A program made the position numbers. From an uncultured delta proteobacterium (GTDB taxonomy: Bacteria > Myxococcota > Myxococcia > Myxococcales > Anaeromyxobacteraceae), in the NCBI GenBank assembly GCA_963814585.1, contig CAWFDF010000008.1:608001-672000 (forward strand): a DNA stretch of 64,000 bases, written 5' to 3'. Below are positions 18,001 through 24,000 of this stretch, piece by piece (within the stretch, counting starts at the first letter, position 1; every line of letters begins with the position of its first letter).

Positions 18001-21000
18001 CCGCGCCGGCTCCCCCGGGACGTCGTCGGTCACCACCGCAGACGCCCGCGGCGCCATCGCCCGCAGCAGGCCCTCCACCGCTCCCGGCTTCGAGCCCACC
18101 AGCGGGTGGTAGGTGACCGGCCTCCGCGCCAGCCGCCGCTGGTTCTCCGCCATTCCGCCCAGCACGAAGGCGTGGTGGCGATCCGACGCCCGGGGCTCGT
18201 CGCAGGCGATGGTCTCGAGGATCAGCAGCGGCGCCTCGAGCGATCGCGCCAGCTCGACGGCCCTGGCCAGGGCGTGGTTCCAGCGGATCCGCCGCTGGGC
18301 GTGCATCCAGTAGAGGACCGGTCCACGGCCGGCGTGGAGCGGCGCGGCGTTGACGGTCCTGATCCGCTCGGCCGGGACGCTCACCGGGCGGCCTCAGGCG
18401 TGATTGCGGAGCATCAGCTCGCGCGGATCGGGATCGAGGTAGGCCTGCCCGAGCAGGTAGCCGGCGCCGTGGCGCCGCGCCGCGGAGCGGATCAGGGTGA
18501 GGGGCACCACCAGCGGGACGTGGCCGCGCCCGAAGTCGGCGATGGCCTCCTCCAGCTCGCGCCGCTCCTCCCGCGACGCCTCCTTGAAGTAGCCGGCGGC
18601 GTGCTGGAGCACGTTGACGTGGCGGCCCCGGGTGGCCGGGACCGCCAGCGCCCCGAGGAGCAGGGCCGCGTAGGCCTCGCCCACCACGGCGAGCGGCTTC
18701 CCCTTCACGCCGGCCACCAGCCTCCCGAGCCTGCGGTAGCCCTCCGGGCTGTGGGCCAGCACCGCGAGCTTCTGGGCGGTGTGAAAGGCCACCAGGCCGC
18801 CGCGGGTCAGCCCCTCGCCCAGCAGCGCCTTCCAGCGAGCGTGGGCGAAGATCCGCTCGACGAAGCTCTCGCGCAGGAGGGGGTCGTGGAGGCGCCCCTC
18901 CTCCTCGATGGGCAGGAGCGGCAGCCGGGCGCGGAGCACGGCGACGAAGGCACCGACGCCGTCGCGCCTGGGCGGCCCGCCCTTCGTGCCGTGGACGCGG
19001 ACCCGCTCGAGGCCGCAGGAGGGCGAGTCCTTCTTGGTGACCCAGCCGTCGAGGCCGAGGTGGCCCAGCCGTTCCACCCGCCTCGTGGCGTACGCCGCCA
19101 TCCGCCCGGTCCAGTCCTCGCCGGTGCGCTCGGCCACCAGCAGCGGCGCCTCGCTCCTCCCGGTCAGCCGGATGGAGGGCCGCGGCACCGGCATCCCCAC
19201 CTCCACCTCCGGGCAGACCGGCACCCACTCCACCAGCGGGCCGAGCAGGTCGACGCAGAAGGGGTCGCGCTTGTGGCCGCCGTCGTAGCGGACGGGCTGG
19301 CCGAGCAGGCAGGCCGAGATGCCGAGGCGGGGGCGGGGGCGGGCGGACGTGGTCATTCGCGGAGCAGGATACCCGAGCCCGCCGCACGAACCGTGCCGTG
19401 ATTCGCAGGCGGCCCGAACGCAAGCGGCCAGCCCCCCGGCACGGGCGGGGCTGGCCGAGTTGCGGAGGCGGGGCCTCCTGCCTACCTGATCACGCCGAGG
19501 TGGGCCTCGTCGACCGGCGCCAGCCCGCCGGGCGCATGGCAGATGGAGCACGACTCGATCTCGTCGCCGCTGTACTGGCCGGCCGGCACGTCGTACGGGG
19601 TCGGGTCGAAGGTGTTGGCGGCGATGTGGGCCTGGGTGGCGATGCCGTCGTGGCAGCTCCCGCAGGCCCGGTTGGCGAACTTCCACCTGGCGGCGTCCGT
19701 CATGGCCGCGTTGGTCTCGTCGTGGCACGCGGTGCAGTCGGACGCGTTGGGGGTCGAGGAGCTCCAGCGGACGCCCCGCGGGTACTGCAGCGCGCTGTAG
19801 TCGTGGGTGCCGTTGATGACGAACCCGTTCACCAGGTCCTTCCCCATGTGGATCTTGTGGACCACCCGCTCCAGCACGACCGCGGAGGATCCGAGCTGCG
19901 CCGTGTCGGTCGTGGTGAGGGTCGGCGTGCCGATGCCCGAGAACGGGTCGAAGCTGTTCTGGTTGTGGCAACCGACGCAGTACTCGATGGCGTACCCGGC
20001 GTGCAGCTTGGCGTCGCCGTGGCACTTGTTGCAGGCGTCACGGCTGACGATGTTGCGGGTCGCCGCCACCGCCCCCGCGACGGGCTCCGGGACGAAGTCG
20101 AAGAAGGCGTTGGTCTTGTTGTCGACGTTCCCGGTGGCCACCACCTTGGTGAAGCCCATGGCGACGCGGTGGGTCAGGTTCGGCTCGTAGGCGACCGGGT
20201 AGAGCATGGTCGGCAGCGAGGCCGCCGAGTACTGGTTCATCGCGGCCACGGAGTTGTTGTGGGCGTGGTCGATGGCGCGGATGTCACCGGGGGTCGCCGC
20301 GTTCGCGTTCAGCAGCGCGAAGGTGTAGGTGAACTGGTTGGTGGCCGCGACCGGGGTGAGCGTGCCGCCGTCCGTCAGGGCCTCGTTCCGCCCCTGGATG
20401 ACCGGAGGCCTGGTGGCGTCCTTGGTCCGGACCTTGCTCAGGTAGCTCTGCCAGTGGCTCGGCGCGTCCCCGACGCCCGGCACCAGCTTGGTCAGGGTGA
20501 AGTTGAGGCCGGTGAAGAGGGCCGGGTCGGTCACGGGCACGCCGCCGTCCGTGACGGCGAAGGTGACGGTCACGCGCCCGGTGGTGGGATCGACGGTGAC
20601 GCCGGAGATGGTCGACTCCATGGTGCGCTGGCTGGCGTCGAAGGTGGCGGCCGGCTTGTGGACCACCTCGACGGGCGCGAGACTGCCGGTCGCATGGCAC
20701 ACGCTGCAGCTGGTGTTGTCGGTGGCGGTGTGGAGCTGGCCGGGGAGGCCCTTGATGCCGGTGTAGGCCGACCCGTCGTAGGTGATGGTGGTGTGGCAGG
20801 AGTCGCAGGCGACCATGGTGGGCCGGGTCCGCCAGTGGTCGGCCTGCGCGACGGTGTTGTGGCACTTGGTGCAGGTCAGCATCGTGCCGGGGTACTTCAG
20901 GGTCGGCCAGTTGTCGCCGTGCCCGGCGGGGTGCAGCGCGCCGAGGGTCAGGGCCTTGTTGGTGTGGATCTGGTGCACCATGGTCACCATGTCGGCCTCA

Positions 21001-24000
21001 TGGCTGGCGATGGTGGCGTTGTAGTTGGGGCTGTGGCAGACGACGCAGAGCTTGACGTCGTTCCGGCCGTACGAGTGGATGGTCACGCCGTAGCCGTGGC
21101 ACTCCTTGCAGGAGGCGTCGTTCACCACGTCCTTGCCGGAGGCGACCGCCGTGGCCGGTGCGGCCATGGCGAAGTCATAGCCCTTGACCCCGGTGAGGAG
21201 CCCGGCCTTGGCCACCCGGACGAAGCCGCGCTGGACGCCCGATCCGGCCGGCGCGTCGGTGGAGAGCTTGTTGCTGGTGAGCAGGTAGGTCCCGGCGGGC
21301 CCCTCGACCAGCGTGACGTCGTCCACGCCCGCCCAGTACTGCCACTCGTCGGAGCCACCGCTGGATCGCGGAAGCAGGCCGGCCAGGTAGATGTTCGTCG
21401 CGGCGATGGTCAGCCCGGTCACGGGGGCGGCGCCATCGGTCACCTCGAAGCTGGCGGTGACGAAGGAGCTGGCGCTGACGCCGAACGCGAGGTTGTTGAC
21501 CACCAGGGTCTTGATGGCGGGCTGGGCGAGGCCCGCCCCGTTGGTGCCGTTGGTGCCGTTGGTCCCGTTGATACCGTTCGTCCCGTTCGTCCCGTTCGTC
21601 CCGTTGGTGCCGTTGGTGCCGTTCGTGCCGTTGGTGCCGTCGGTGCCGTTGATGCCGTCGGCGCCGGCAGGACCCTGCGGGCCGGTTGAGCCCTCGCAGG
21701 CAGCGAGAGCGAAGAAGAGCGACGCGGCCAGCAGCACCGTGCGACCCTGGAACTGACTCATCCTCATTTGGGACTCTCCTCGATACGTTGAACGGGGTGA
21801 TTGGAGCGCCATGATCTGCAGCACAGTTCGTTCCGAACCCCTTGGAAAAGCGAATCGAACGCCTGTCGAACGAATCGCGCGGGGTGCCTCTCGCAGCCTA
21901 CCCCATGAGGGACGAGCAGGGTTGCTAAATCCACCCAAAGGCTGGGTCGATTCACCCATTGGGCGCACCCGGGCGCGGCCTACGGCATGCGTCGGGCCCG
22001 CCGGAACGTGAGGTAGAGTCGCACATGCTCCGGCTGGGTTGGCCCTCGATCCTGGTGCTGGTCATGCTGGTGATCCTGCTGGCCCGGCGCCCGGGGCTCC
22101 TCGCCAGCCGCGCCTTCCTGCCGGTGCTGCTGGTCGCGGGGGCGCTCCTGCTGGTGGGCTACCGCCGCCGCCGGCCGCCGCGGTGAGTCCACTCCCGCTG
22201 GCTGTCAGAGGCCCCGCCTAGGCTCCGCTTCGGGGAGCGTGAATGGGCAGCGGGCGCGCAGCGGGTGCGGGGCTGACGGCGGCCCAGCTGATGGACTTCT
22301 GGCTCTGGCTCTGGCTCGGCTTCACCGAGCGCGAGGAGGCGCTGGGCCGGCGGAGCCACGTCCCTGGCGCCAGCGCGGCCGAGGTCGAGCTGAACGCAGA
22401 GCTCGTGGCGCTGGAGTCGGTGTCGTCGCGCCTCTCGGCCGAGCTCCCGCCCCCCCCGCCTGGCTCGCCCGCGGGACTCACCTTCCCGCGGCTGCAGGGC
22501 GGCCTCGCCCCCGCCTCGATGGAGCGGCTGGCGTCGTGGCTGGCCGGCTCCACCGCCCCGGCGGCGACCCGCGTCGGGAGGCGCGCCGCCGAGGTGCTGC
22601 GGAAGGCCCGGGTCGAGCCGCCCCCCTCCCCCTCGCGCGCCGCGGCCGTCGAGCTCTGGACCTGGCTCAGCGGGGCCGAGGCCGATCGGCGGCGCCTCCT
22701 GGCCGGGGCCACCCGGGACCGGTCCGCCGCACGGCAGCTCGGGGACGAGCTGCGGTTCCTGCTCTCCGTCCAGGCAGGCGTGCGGCGCGGGCAGCCCGAC
22801 GTCATCCCCTCCCACCCGCACGAGGCCCGCTGGCTGGGCGCGCGGCAAGCGGTCCCGACCGCCACCGCGGCGGAGCTGGCGCGCGTGCTGAGGCGGGCCC
22901 ATCCCGACATGGCCTCCGGACGCGACGGGGCGCGGCTCGGCCAGCTGGTGGACGCCACCGCCTCACGGCTCGAGGCGCTGGCCGGGCCGCAGGCGCTGGC
23001 CGCCGCGCGGGCGCGAGAGCAGGCGGAGGCTCCCCGCTCGACCGTGCGCGGCAAGATCGCCGCCGGGCTGGCCGCCGCCGGGAGCGAGCCCGAGCGCGCT
23101 GCCGGCCGGTTCCTCGGCAAGCTGGTGGTGGCCGACGCCAGCGGGCTGGGCGCCACGCTGGTGGACGCCGACCTGGGCGAGCGGACCGCCTGGCGGGTGG
23201 TCATCACCCCTGCCGGCTTCGACGAGGCGGCCGAGTTCAGCGCCGCCGGCGCGGTCGGCTACGAGCTCTTCGTGCTGGTCGGCGCCAGCGGCGCGCTCGA
23301 GGCCGTCCACCAGCGCATCGACCGCTCTCCGCACGGCCAGCGCTGGTTCGCGCCGGCGCCGGCGCCCGGGTGGCTCCACCCGCAGGGCCCCACCCTCGAC
23401 GTGGCCTGGGTGGACGTGGCGGCGCCGGCGCGGGCCAGGATGCAGGCCCTGCTGGCGGCGCTCACCAGCGGCCGATCCGTCCCGGCCGCGGAGCGGCAGC
23501 TCCCCGGAGCGGCGCTGGCCCTGGCGGCCCGGCGCGTCCGCCGATCACGCCACTGAGCGGCCCCGAGCCGGTGGTATGTTGCCTCCCCTCCGGAGGCGCC
23601 CCACGTGCTCGAGCTCGTCACCCAGCCATCGACCTGGCTCTCGCTGATCACCCTGTCCGCCATGGAGGTGGTGCTGGGGATCGACAACGTCGTCTTCCTC
23701 ACCATCCTCACGGGCCGGCTCCCGGCGGCGCAGCAACCGAGCGCCCGGCGGCTCGGCCTGGCGCTGGCGTTGCTCACCCGGCTCGCCCTGCTCTTCGCCA
23801 TCTCCTGGGTGATGGGGCTGACCGCACCGCTCTTCGCGGTGCTGGGACGCTCCGTCTCCGGACGCGACCTCATCCTGCTCGGCGGCGGGCTCTTCCTCCT
23901 CGCCAAGGCCACCTTCGAGATCCACGACAAGCTGGAGACCGGTGGCCACGCCCCCGCCTCCAGCGGGAAGAGCGCCTACTGGCTGGTGATCGGGCAGGTG

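What a model noticed while it worked through the whole genome (the two positions that open the first line are those of the whole stretch)
19482..21767. Collagen-like Gly-X-Y stalk on two MtrC/OmcA-family decahaem lipoproteins
g01802 (C8:627482-629767, 761 aa) and g01087 (C4:636554-639100, 848 aa) are MtrC/OmcA-type decahaem c-type cytochromes (10 CxxCH each) in which the lipobox cysteine is followed at once by 18 and 14 uninterrupted Gly-X-Y triplets (mostly GTN/GIN). The stalk is predicted to form a collagen-type triple helix, so these cytochromes would be displayed as trimers (30 haems) on a rigid spacer of roughly 12-15 nm; they stand alone, without mtrA/mtrB-like neighbours.
Evidence so far: Pfam Collagen (E 8e-9 and 5e-7) plus two Mtrc-MtrF_II-IV_dom hits on each protein, sequences read directly; 10 CxxCH each; regex (G..)x>=8 over all 3981 proteins finds runs of 14 and 18 triplets only in these two (two other hits are 8-triplet Gly-rich runs); gene neighbours listed; of 40 relatives with E<=1e-30 among 5.8e9 proteins, 15 carry PF01391 Collagen with the cytochrome domains; best relatives (57-64% identity) are named Desulfuromonas/Desulfuromonadales/Desulfurivibrionaceae; predict_complex with three copies of residues 24-200 of g01802: 'supports binding', score 0.50 (0.50,0.51,0.50), best of 3 controls 0.01; mark reached by 21 of 30 proteins solved as pairs of one chain and 0 of [...]
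(Added by a program. Inside this text positions count along the whole contig: contig position 608,001 is position 1 of the stretch shown here. "Call 12" and the like, gene names such as g00115 and contig names such as C1 are that model's own, and its searches are not shown. The text may have been shortened before it was handed on; [...] marks where a part breaks off. The agent that wrote the report below was given it as the finding of a first reader that could run no searches.)

Follow-up and report, generated by a model that had tools for sequence, protein, structure and literature searches.

The report
Collagen-stalked cytochrome with swappable heads
A lipid-anchored ten-haem electron-transfer protein sits on a collagen-like Gly-X-Y spacer; related bacteria keep the same gene position, signal peptide and spacer type but carry different cytochrome heads there, which suggests a modular way to vary the cell's outer electrical contact, while the proposed trimer remains unproven.

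Summary
In detail: window 19482-21767(-) is an OmcA/MtrC-family (TIGR03507) decahaem lipoprotein with 18 unbroken Gly-X-Y triplets after its lipobox; the C4 paralogue has 14. The tract is not special to these two genes. 74 of 121 lipoprotein relatives, found with the head alone, have 5 or more triplets, and Shewanella MtrC/MtrF have 5 (unmodelled in crystals; MtrCAB is 1:1:1). This scan noted collagen-stalked cytochromes on other DNA at least 8 times. Glycine periodicity is under selection, so a triple helix is the likeliest structure (about 50%), but this tract is short, proline-poor and lacks charge pairs, and its length varies from 10 to 27 triplets, so it is no precise ruler. New here: six genomes of the genus keep this chromosomal slot, the signal peptide (16-18 of 24 residues identical) and a Gly-X-Y tract, yet carry heads from four separate clades (27-30% identical to this head; one-clade test p=4e-44). 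DNA similarity ends inside the tract. The tract therefore looks like both a spacer and the crossover hinge of an exchangeable display cassette. New variant of a known kind; interest 0.62.

The parts
19482..21767 (-). OmcA/MtrC-family decahaem c-type cytochrome lipoprotein gene (761 aa)
   Evidence: TIGR03507 291.3 bits, cut-off 209.3; Foldseek best hits MtrC, UndA, OmcA, E 1e-18 to 1e-14
21696..21767 (-). Lipoprotein signal peptide and lipobox Cys24; resident, genus-type leader
   Evidence: Read from the sequence; 16-18 of 24 residues identical to the genes at the same slot in five other genomes, scores of only 14-35 against the 27 relatives with the closest heads versus 88 for a slot gene
21531..21692 (-). 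18 unbroken Gly-X-Y triplets (imperfect 9-bp repeat): spacer and likely crossover hinge
   Evidence: Pfam Collagen; DNA similarity to the five slot genes ends at window 21538-21659, inside this tract
21147..21512 (-). Domain I (beta domain, about residues 86-207)
   Evidence: AlphaFold2 strands, pLDDT mostly 83-96; aligns to MtrC/MtrF domain I
20655..21134 (-). Domain II, five haem motifs (residues 212-371)
   Evidence: PF22113; motif positions
20088..20630 (-). Domain III (beta domain, about residues 380-560), without the CX8-15C disulfide of the Shewanella proteins
   Evidence: Model strands; Cys24 is the only non-haem Cys; PMC4486940 passages
19497..20060 (-). Domain IV, five haem motifs (about residues 570-757)
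   Evidence: Second PF22113 stretch; motif positions
21768..22002 (-). Upstream non-coding region with AGGAG ribosome-binding site at 21776-21780; partly conserved at the orthologous slot
   Evidence: Alignment of six slot genes; this region plus leader matches 5 of 12 same-genus genomes at E 1e-13 or better
16187..19356 (.). Downstream flank of the slot: SNase-like gene, photolyase, DUF523/DUF1722 gene (not electron-transfer genes; they define the slot)
   Evidence: Pfam; 73-88% protein identity in relatives
22243..25475 (+). Upstream flank of the slot: hypothetical gene, TerC-family gene, Lgt-family gene
   Evidence: Pfam; 65-87% protein identity for the first two in relatives; DNA 74-86%

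Best explanation
The gene is a modular display cassette for an outer-surface electron-transfer cytochrome. A resident promoter, signal peptide and lipobox anchor the protein in the membrane; a Gly-X-Y tract holds an OmcA/MtrC-type ten-haem head up to about 15 nm away; the head takes electrons from a separately encoded porin-cytochrome conduit and passes them to extracellular acceptors. The tract most likely zips three lipid-anchored chains into a collagen-type triple helix, probably marginally stable and frayed in its Asn-rich part, so a bouquet on a tilting stalk rather than a rigid ruler. The same 9-bp-periodic tract is the crossover point at which heads are exchanged between paralogues or taken in from other lineages while leader and anchor stay. 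Shown: family, tract, selection on Gly, stand-alone position, different heads behind one leader at one slot, similarity ending in the tract. Inferred: lipidation, surface location, electron donor and acceptor, triple helix (about 0.5), recombination inside the tract as the cause (about 0.65).
For: Family. Gly selection: in 28 close relatives, with the tether defined from lipobox Cys to domain I without regard to Gly, 25 have runs beyond all 2000 shuffles; in the 21 simple tethers neighbouring triplets differ at X in 145 and at Y in 143 of 224 pairs while Gly is unbroken; Gly codons in the window tract vary only at the third base. In the head-only set X is Pro in 32% of 603 triplets (GPA, GPP, GPT common), a collagen-like make-up. 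GTN-type and GPT/GPQ-type tracts replace each other at the same slot and on the same head (C4 paralogue and its 69%-identical orthologue in G007). Some relatives interleave the tract with DUF7151 or a weak 'collagen-flanked surface repeat' match. Head exchange: flanks 74-86% identical in DNA, similarity ending at 21538-21659; signal peptides 67-75% but heads 27-30% identical; the six slot heads fall in four starred clades, one clade rejected at p-AU 3.7e-44; this head has no match at E 1e-40 in 80 same-family genomes but 62-71% identity to Desulfuromonas soudanensis P0004 and to P0002; tandem arrays with look-alike leaders and, in three of four, unlike heads occur in G004, G014, G018 and G006. 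Not a misassembly: contigs of two studies bridge the head's 3' end to the DUF523/1722 gene (X1 19285-19659, X5 19264-19603), and in X1 one contig joins tract, leader and upstream gene (21594-23092) and another joins head and tract end (X1 may be the source sample). Donor: a two-gene pair on C11, 12-haem cytochrome plus a protein whose nearest named Atlas clusters are outer-membrane beta-barrels, like the Anaeromyxobacter pcc pairs that lack their own outer-membrane cytochrome (PMC4245776 passages). Three secretins and a weak GspL match.
Against: Shewanella MtrC and MtrF carry 5 such triplets, yet residues 26-44 of MtrC are not built and one molecule fills the asymmetric unit (PMC4486940; that construct lacks the lipid) and lipidated MtrCAB is 1:1:1. 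47 of 121 lipoprotein relatives have under 5 triplets, many with Gly/Ser/Thr/Pro linkers. The tract has 54 residues, 2 Pro, no Lys-Gly-Asp/Glu pair; Scl2-derived domains of 75-237 residues melt at only 23.5-35.6 C; Asn at Y is recalled as one of the poorest residues there (not seen in any call); the G001 slot gene has 27 triplets with no Pro and 25 Asn/Asp at Y. Shorter tracts are not richer in Pro (rho -0.15, p 0.20, n 74). No trimerisation domain is recognised next to the tract. The heptad segments that replace the tract in P0018/P0019 match single-chain helical bundles best, so they do not vouch for trimers. Surface location and the donor are untested, and the direction and donor of the head transfer are not established.
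Confidence: 0.52

Rival explanations
1. The tract is a single-chain, extended or disordered tether on a monomeric cytochrome (ball and chain). It gives reach and lets the head swing between a porin-cytochrome outlet and a mineral. Its periodicity comes from repeated 9-bp duplication and recombination plus a preference for Gly. Head exchange at the tract holds under this reading too.
For: Five-triplet tracts are unmodelled in single-copy Shewanella MtrC; non-periodic Gly, Thr or Pro linkers fill the same slot in about 40% of relatives; median run only 6 triplets; Pro-poor, Asn-rich make-up and free length variation, 10-27 triplets; AlphaFold2 gives the monomer tract pLDDT 31-39 (expected under either reading); repeat tethers are known on the Geobacter lipoprotein cytochrome PgcA (PMC5732950 passages).
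Against: A lone chain needs no Gly at every third place, yet X and Y change between about two thirds of neighbouring triplets while Gly never breaks in 21 of 21 simple tethers; selection for DNA homology would conserve X and Y codons too; G-P-A/G-P-P/G-P-T dominate family-wide.
Confidence: 0.33
2. The protein is anchored in the inner membrane or the inner leaflet of the outer membrane and the tract spans part of the periplasm, positioning the head between quinol oxidases and the porin-cytochrome conduit.
For: Location was not tested; no mtrB/pioB-type gene was found in the 91.7% complete genome; non-lipoprotein family members next to MtrA-sized decahaems occur in Acidobacteriota loci; 9-23 nm is the scale of a periplasm (general knowledge).
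Against: The characterised family members are surface lipoproteins; free length variation and head exchange fit a surface display under diversifying pressure better than a fixed-width periplasmic bridge; secretins and a GspL-like match are present.
Confidence: 0.1
3. The Asn/Thr-rich tract is a functional surface in itself: an N-glycosylated brush (10 Asn-X-Thr/Ser sequons in the first 90 residues) or a mineral- or metal-binding repeat.
For: 10 and 5 sequons in the two tracts; Thr/Pro repeats of PgcA were proposed to bind oxides.
Against: No STT3 match in this genome nor in G001, G009 or G012; only partial matches in 6 of 12 other genus members; equivalent tracts are GPT-, GAD- or GVN-rich without sequons.
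Confidence: 0.05

Closest known systems
Shewanella outer-membrane multihaem cytochromes MtrC, MtrF, OmcA, UndA (TIGR03507; PDB 6qyc, 9eov, 3pmq, 4lmh, 3ucp)
   Same: Lipoprotein, four-domain layout with two pentahaem domains, fold; even a short Gly-X-Y run after the lipobox, 5 triplets in MtrC and MtrF.
   Different: Tract of 18 triplets; no domain III CX8-15C disulfide; no mtrA/mtrB beside it and no PF11854 match in the genome; 15-20% structural-alignment identity; head exchanged between relatives at one slot.
Bacterial collagen-like surface proteins (Streptococcus Scl1/Scl2, Legionella Lcl; Bacillus BclA recalled)
   Same: Anchor, unbroken Gly-X-Y stalk, globular head; hydroxyproline-free; variable repeat number; weak NCBIfam matches to SclA, SclB and Lcl over the tract only (PMC8968730 passages).
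   Different: Lipid anchor at the N-terminus; redox head of about 680 residues; no recognised trimerisation domain; no Lys/Asp charge pairs; stalk shorter than the Scl2 domains shown to be stable.
Geobacter PgcA (lipoprotein trihaem cytochrome with Pro-Thr-x repeats)
   Same: Extracellular lipoprotein cytochrome with low-complexity tandem repeats acting beyond the outer membrane (PMC5732950 passages).
   Different: PgcA repeats lie between haems, are not Gly-periodic, and its CD showed no special structure; different fold.
Anaeromyxobacter two-gene pcc clusters (porin plus 12-haem cytochrome)
   Same: This genome has such a pair on C11; the published clusters lack an outer-membrane cytochrome (PMC4245776 passages).
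   Different: A link between that conduit and stand-alone stalked decahaems is my inference, not published or tested.
Mosaic fibres and adhesins that swap tip domains at repeated stalk sequence (phage tail fibres, trimeric adhesins; recalled, no call)
   Same: Constant anchor and stalk, variable tip, crossover in repeats.
   Different: Here the variable tip is a respiratory multihaem cytochrome on the chromosome; no recombinase gene was seen at the slot.

Membership tests
OmcA/MtrC family decahaem cytochrome (TIGR03507) | HMM score above the curated cut-off | tested here: met
   Window protein 291.3 bits against 209.3. The C4 paralogue, 163.8 bits, does not meet it.
OmcA/MtrC family decahaem cytochrome (TIGR03507) | Ten CxxCH motifs in two pentahaem domains | tested here: met
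   5+5 motifs, two PF22113 stretches; the C4 paralogue is arranged 1+5+4.
OmcA/MtrC family decahaem cytochrome (TIGR03507) | Beta domains I and III alternating with haem domains; MtrC-like fold | tested here: met
   AlphaFold2 model (mean pLDDT 61; beta domains confident, haem domains poor) and Foldseek: the 9 matches with E under 0.001 are all MtrC, UndA or OmcA.
OmcA/MtrC family decahaem cytochrome (TIGR03507) | Lipoprotein signal peptide with lipobox Cys | tested here: met
   Hydrophobic leader ending L-A-A-C24, Cys nearly invariant in 28 relatives; lipidation itself not measured.
Shewanella MtrC/MtrF/OmcA/UndA clades (strict sense) | Conserved CX8-15C disulfide in domain III | tested here: not met
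   Cys24 is the only non-haem Cys; feature described in PMC4486940. Filed under the wider family only.
Shewanella MtrC/MtrF/OmcA/UndA clades (strict sense) | Encoded with mtrA/mtrB-type porin-cytochrome genes | tested here: not met
   Neighbours are photolyase, DUF523/1722, TerC and Lgt-type genes; no PF11854 match in the genome, 91.7% complete.
Shewanella MtrC/MtrF/OmcA/UndA clades (strict sense) | Surface exposure and reduction of extracellular acceptors | not testable with these tools
   Only indirect: three secretins, one GspL-like match below cut-off.
Bacterial collagen-like proteins | Unbroken Gly-X-Y repeat above the Pfam Collagen cut-off | tested here: met
   18 and 14 triplets; 33 and 29.4 bits against 27.2.
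Bacterial collagen-like proteins | Gly kept at every third position while X and Y vary | tested here: met
   25 of 28 close relatives beyond 2000 shuffles; X differs in 145 and Y in 143 of 224 neighbouring pairs.
Bacterial collagen-like proteins | Stabilising make-up (Pro or Lys-Gly-Asp/Glu pairs) and length in the range shown to be stable | tested here: not met
   2 Pro of 36, no Lys/Arg/Glu, 54 residues against 75-237 residues with Tm 23.5-35.6 C. Many relatives are Pro-rich.
Bacterial collagen-like proteins | Adjacent trimerisation domain | tested here: inconclusive
   None recognised by Pfam or NCBIfam; domain I starts about 6 residues after the tract.
Bacterial collagen-like proteins | Triple helix and trimer shown by CD, AUC or EM | not testable with these tools
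   Needs experiment; so the claim is 'collagen-like sequence', not membership.

The most novel reading that the evidence does not exclude
Anaeromyxobacter-like bacteria run an exchangeable display system for extracellular respiration: a fixed leader-lipobox-collagen cassette trimerises whichever decahaem head recombination places behind it, building 30-haem bouquets 9-23 nm above the membrane as a second tier over a headless porin-cytochrome conduit; the nearly proline-free (Gly-Thr-Asn)n tract is a new class of triple helix held by lipid clustering and Asn/Thr side-chain bonds; and the 5-triplet tracts of Shewanella MtrC/MtrF are short forms of the same device.
Probability: 0.3. Interest if true: 0.85.

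Novelty: new variant of a known kind. Interest (0 to 1): 0.62.

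Why it matters
How surface cytochromes reach minerals and electrodes through the polysaccharide coat, and how organisms whose porin-cytochrome pair has no outer cytochrome finish the circuit, are open questions in extracellular electron transfer. 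A family-wide Gly-X-Y spacer that the searched papers do not describe gives a direct test: change its length or break its Gly register and measure oligomer state, reach and reduction rate. The head exchange adds an evolutionary mechanism: respiratory tips swapped like adhesin or tail-fibre tips, with six natural variants at one locus to compare. If the (Gly-Thr-Asn)n tract does form a triple helix it would extend the rules of collagen stability; if it does not, Pfam 'Collagen' labels on many such lipoproteins mislead. A portable leader-stalk cassette would also be useful for displaying redox proteins in bioelectrochemistry.

Tried and rejected
Complex prediction of three copies of domain I alone (residues 78-214, 36-row alignment): no answer, score 0.00, controls not folded. 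Single-sequence AlphaFold2 of P0002, to see its Cys-bounded hairpin stalk: mean pLDDT 34, not used for a fold search; the Atlas search of that stalk gave leads under 0.9 only (Collagen, CFSR, DUF4988). N-glycosylation of the Asn-Gly-Thr sequons: no STT3 match in this genome. 'Short tracts are more Pro-rich': no correlation. 'Tract only on genes without an MtrA-like neighbour': the pattern in loci L005-L045 rests on 20 related non-lipoprotein Acidobacteriota genes and two Gammaproteobacteria, and Shewanella MtrC/MtrF break it. Heptad stalks of P0018/P0019 as proof of trimers: best PDB matches are designed single-chain bundles, Lpp only at E 0.3. Recent transfer from a low-GC donor: head GC3 0.975 equals the flanks, 0.94-0.98. 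Promoter/terminator scan: no promoter-like site, one terminator-like site at chance level. Sequencing runs: no RNA holder listed; no listed contig spans the inside of the tract (21566-21594), so the count of 18 rests on the assembly; small-share runs were not used for habitat. Host-guest stability values per residue were not found in the library, so no melting point was computed. The first search for relatives (median 10 triplets, 36% Asn at Y) is biased toward GTN tracts and was replaced by the head-only search. The 59-row tree did not finish; trees use 34 and 16 of those 59 rows, chosen to keep all slot heads and their nearest neighbours. The search for 'CFSR' returned unrelated papers.

Full report
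Observation. Window 19482-21767 on the minus strand encodes a 761-residue protein with a hydrophobic leader, lipobox Cys24, one Glu, 18 unbroken Gly-X-Y triplets (residues 26-79) and ten CxxCH motifs in two groups of five. It passes the curated cut-off of TIGR03507 (291.3 against 209.3 bits) and Pfam Collagen (33 against 27.2 bits). An AlphaFold2 model from 28 sequences has confident beta domains I and III and poor haem domains; its nine Foldseek matches under E 0.001 are all MtrC, UndA or OmcA. The second gene, C4:636554-639100, has 14 triplets and ten motifs, but is only 26% identical, lies below the family cut-off (163.8 bits) and has haem 1 right behind the tract. A third family member on C14 has no tract. 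Among 32,987 six-frame ORFs these are the only multihaem ORFs with 8 or more triplets. Neighbours are unrelated genes (photolyase, DUF523/1722, TerC, Lgt-type; RluA, glycosyltransferase) and no MtrB/PioB match was found in the 91.7% complete genome.

The tract is a family trait. The PDB sequences of Shewanella MtrF (3pmq) and MtrC (9eov) already show five triplets after the lipobox. To avoid bias I searched 1.84 billion representatives with the head alone. Of the best 150, 139 have nine or more haem motifs and 121 of those a detectable lipobox; their longest post-lipobox run has median 6, with 74 at 5 or more, 29 at 10 or more, 9 at 14 or more and 2 at 18 or more. So these two tracts are long but not unique, and 47 of 121 use other linkers (Gly runs, Pro/Thr repeats, extra domains). 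Twenty Acidobacteriota members without a lipobox have no tract, but they are one lineage. The scan has noted collagen-stalked multihaem lipoproteins on other DNA in at least eight earlier findings; these are unchecked notes and I do not count them as support.

Is it a triple helix? For: in 28 close relatives, with the tether defined from lipobox to domain I without looking at Gly, 25 have runs longer than any of 2000 shuffles; in the 21 tethers made of the run alone, neighbouring triplets differ at X in 145 and at Y in 143 of 224 pairs while Gly is unbroken, and Gly codons in the window differ only at the third base. Slippage alone, or selection for DNA homology, would not spare Gly only. Family-wide, X is Pro in 32% of 603 triplets, and Pro-rich and GTN-rich tracts replace each other on the same leader or the same head. 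Against: this tract has 54 residues, two Pro and no Lys, Arg or Glu; a review (PMC7824840, passages) gives Tm 23.5-35.6 C for Scl2-derived domains of 75-237 residues and names Lys-Gly-Asp/Glu pairs as major stabilisers; Scl2 also needs its V domain to nucleate (PMC8968730, passages) and none is recognised here. That Asn at Y is strongly unfavourable is recalled from the host-guest scale, which I could not retrieve. In S. oneidensis MtrC the model begins at residue 45, just after the tract, with one molecule per asymmetric unit (PMC4486940, passages; lipid-free construct), and lipidated MtrCAB is 1:1:1 (PMC7198977 and PMC5971433, passages). Shorter tracts are not richer in Pro. I put the triple helix at about one in two.

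The head has no match at E 1e-40 in 80 genomes of the same family; its nearest relatives are P0002 (71%) and Desulfuromonas soudanensis P0004 (62%). The signal peptide tells the opposite story: it scores 14-35 against those 27 close heads but 88 against a protein whose head is about 25% identical. Following the leader DNA led to the same chromosomal slot in five other genomes of the genus (G001, G002, G005, G009, G012). Flanks are 74-86% identical in DNA and 65-88% in protein; the signal peptides share 16-18 of 24 residues; each gene has an unbroken tract (27, 14, 10, 19 and 11 triplets, with 0, 1, 7, 8 and 2 Pro); DNA similarity to the window stops at 21538-21659, inside the tract, and resumes only in the downstream genes; the heads are 27-30% identical to this one. 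The six heads fall in four strongly supported clades (34-row tree), and a single clade is rejected (16 rows, p-AU 3.7e-44). The upstream flank was found in 7 of 12 other genus genomes: five hold a cytochrome there, G007 holds none, G008 ends at a contig edge; G005 is tied by its upstream flank only. G004 has two further stalked decahaems in tandem next to the DUF523/1722 gene, and G014, G018 and G006 have tandem arrays elsewhere in which leaders look alike within a genome while heads differ in three of the four. Contigs from two studies bridge the head's 3' end to the downstream gene, and in one run the tract is joined to the leader and upstream gene on one contig and to the head on another, so a chimeric assembly is unlikely. 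Two routes fit: tract-to-tract deletion or conversion within tandem arrays, and uptake of a foreign head by crossover in the tract. The head's codon usage matches the host, so any transfer is old or from a high-GC donor; direction and donor are not established.

How it most likely works. Sec export, lipidation at Cys24 and haem attachment follow from the family; surface display through type II secretion is inferred (three secretins, a weak GspL match). The genome has a 12-haem cytochrome beside a probable beta-barrel on C11, like the two-gene pcc clusters of Anaeromyxobacter that lack an outer-membrane cytochrome (PMC4245776, passages). Stand-alone stalked decahaems could be the missing, exchangeable terminal modules, lifted above the surface coat and able to tilt or swing to the conduit. 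The missing domain III disulfide implies no oxygen-controlled flavin switch of the Shewanella type. All of this paragraph is inference.

Novelty. Five full-text searches found no paper joining collagen-like or Gly-X-Y repeats with MtrC/OmcA or multihaem cytochromes (searches returned none; four of ten listed papers mention collagen once, of which I read two passages, both unrelated to such a stalk: PMC5732950, and PMC5244752; the review PMC7096707 was seen as passages). The library lacks most subscription journals, and I opened no supplements, where domain tables may list the Collagen match. Head exchange at a fixed leader-stalk was not found among the scan's notes; I did not search papers for it specifically. 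Verdict: a real feature, a new variant of a known family; the trimer is plausible but unproven; the exchangeable-head cassette is the better-supported new result. Interest 0.62.

Noticed in passing
G000:C11:183504-185906 (L085:5505-7906, minus strand): A 12-haem cytochrome of about 350 aa directly behind a 440-aa protein whose nearest named Atlas clusters are outer-membrane beta-barrels: a probable two-gene porin-cytochrome (pcc-like) conduit.
   Followed up: partly
G000 contigs C1, C6 and C16 (L080, L079, L078): Three near-duplicate multihaem clusters (42-haem protein, NHL protein, 6- and 9-haem cytochromes, 719-aa protein); the copies on C16 and C1 look broken by frame changes.
   Followed up: no
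G000:C14:170279-179632; C14:232125-235967; C8:540103-544566: Very large multihaem proteins with 58, 29 and 28 CxxCH motifs.
   Followed up: no
P0018 and P0019 (N-terminal 30-95): Close relatives (55-58%) in which the tract is cut to 3 triplets and followed by heptad-repeat helical segments.
   Followed up: partly
P0002, P0008, P0010, P0013, P0029, P0079 (N-terminal regions): Stalks built of Gly-X-Y blocks alternating with Cys-bounded beta-hairpin repeats or DUF7151 domains; weak match to 'collagen-flanked surface repeat' in P0079.
   Followed up: partly
L105:3186-5754 (G002:C6): The orthologue of the C4 paralogue at the RluA slot is split into two reading frames in G002; no multihaem gene was seen at that slot in the other genus genomes where it could be read (G001, G004, G006, G009, G012).
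   Followed up: partly
window 16906-19356: Photolyase plus DUF523/DUF1722 pair is missing at this slot in G007 and G012.
   Followed up: no
window about 11040-14671 (+): A long FAD/Fe-S oxidoreductase-like gene appears to change frame near 12150-12420 (label from reading the sequence, no family search).
   Followed up: no
window about 29274-35734 (+): An efflux-like cluster (outer-membrane factor, periplasmic adaptor, CusA-like permease by recall) with several apparent frame breaks.
   Followed up: no
window 19357-19481: The sequence after the stop codon differs from the shared terminator-like hairpin seen at this slot in G001, G009 and G012, so the exchanged segment includes the 3' untranslated region.
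   Followed up: partly
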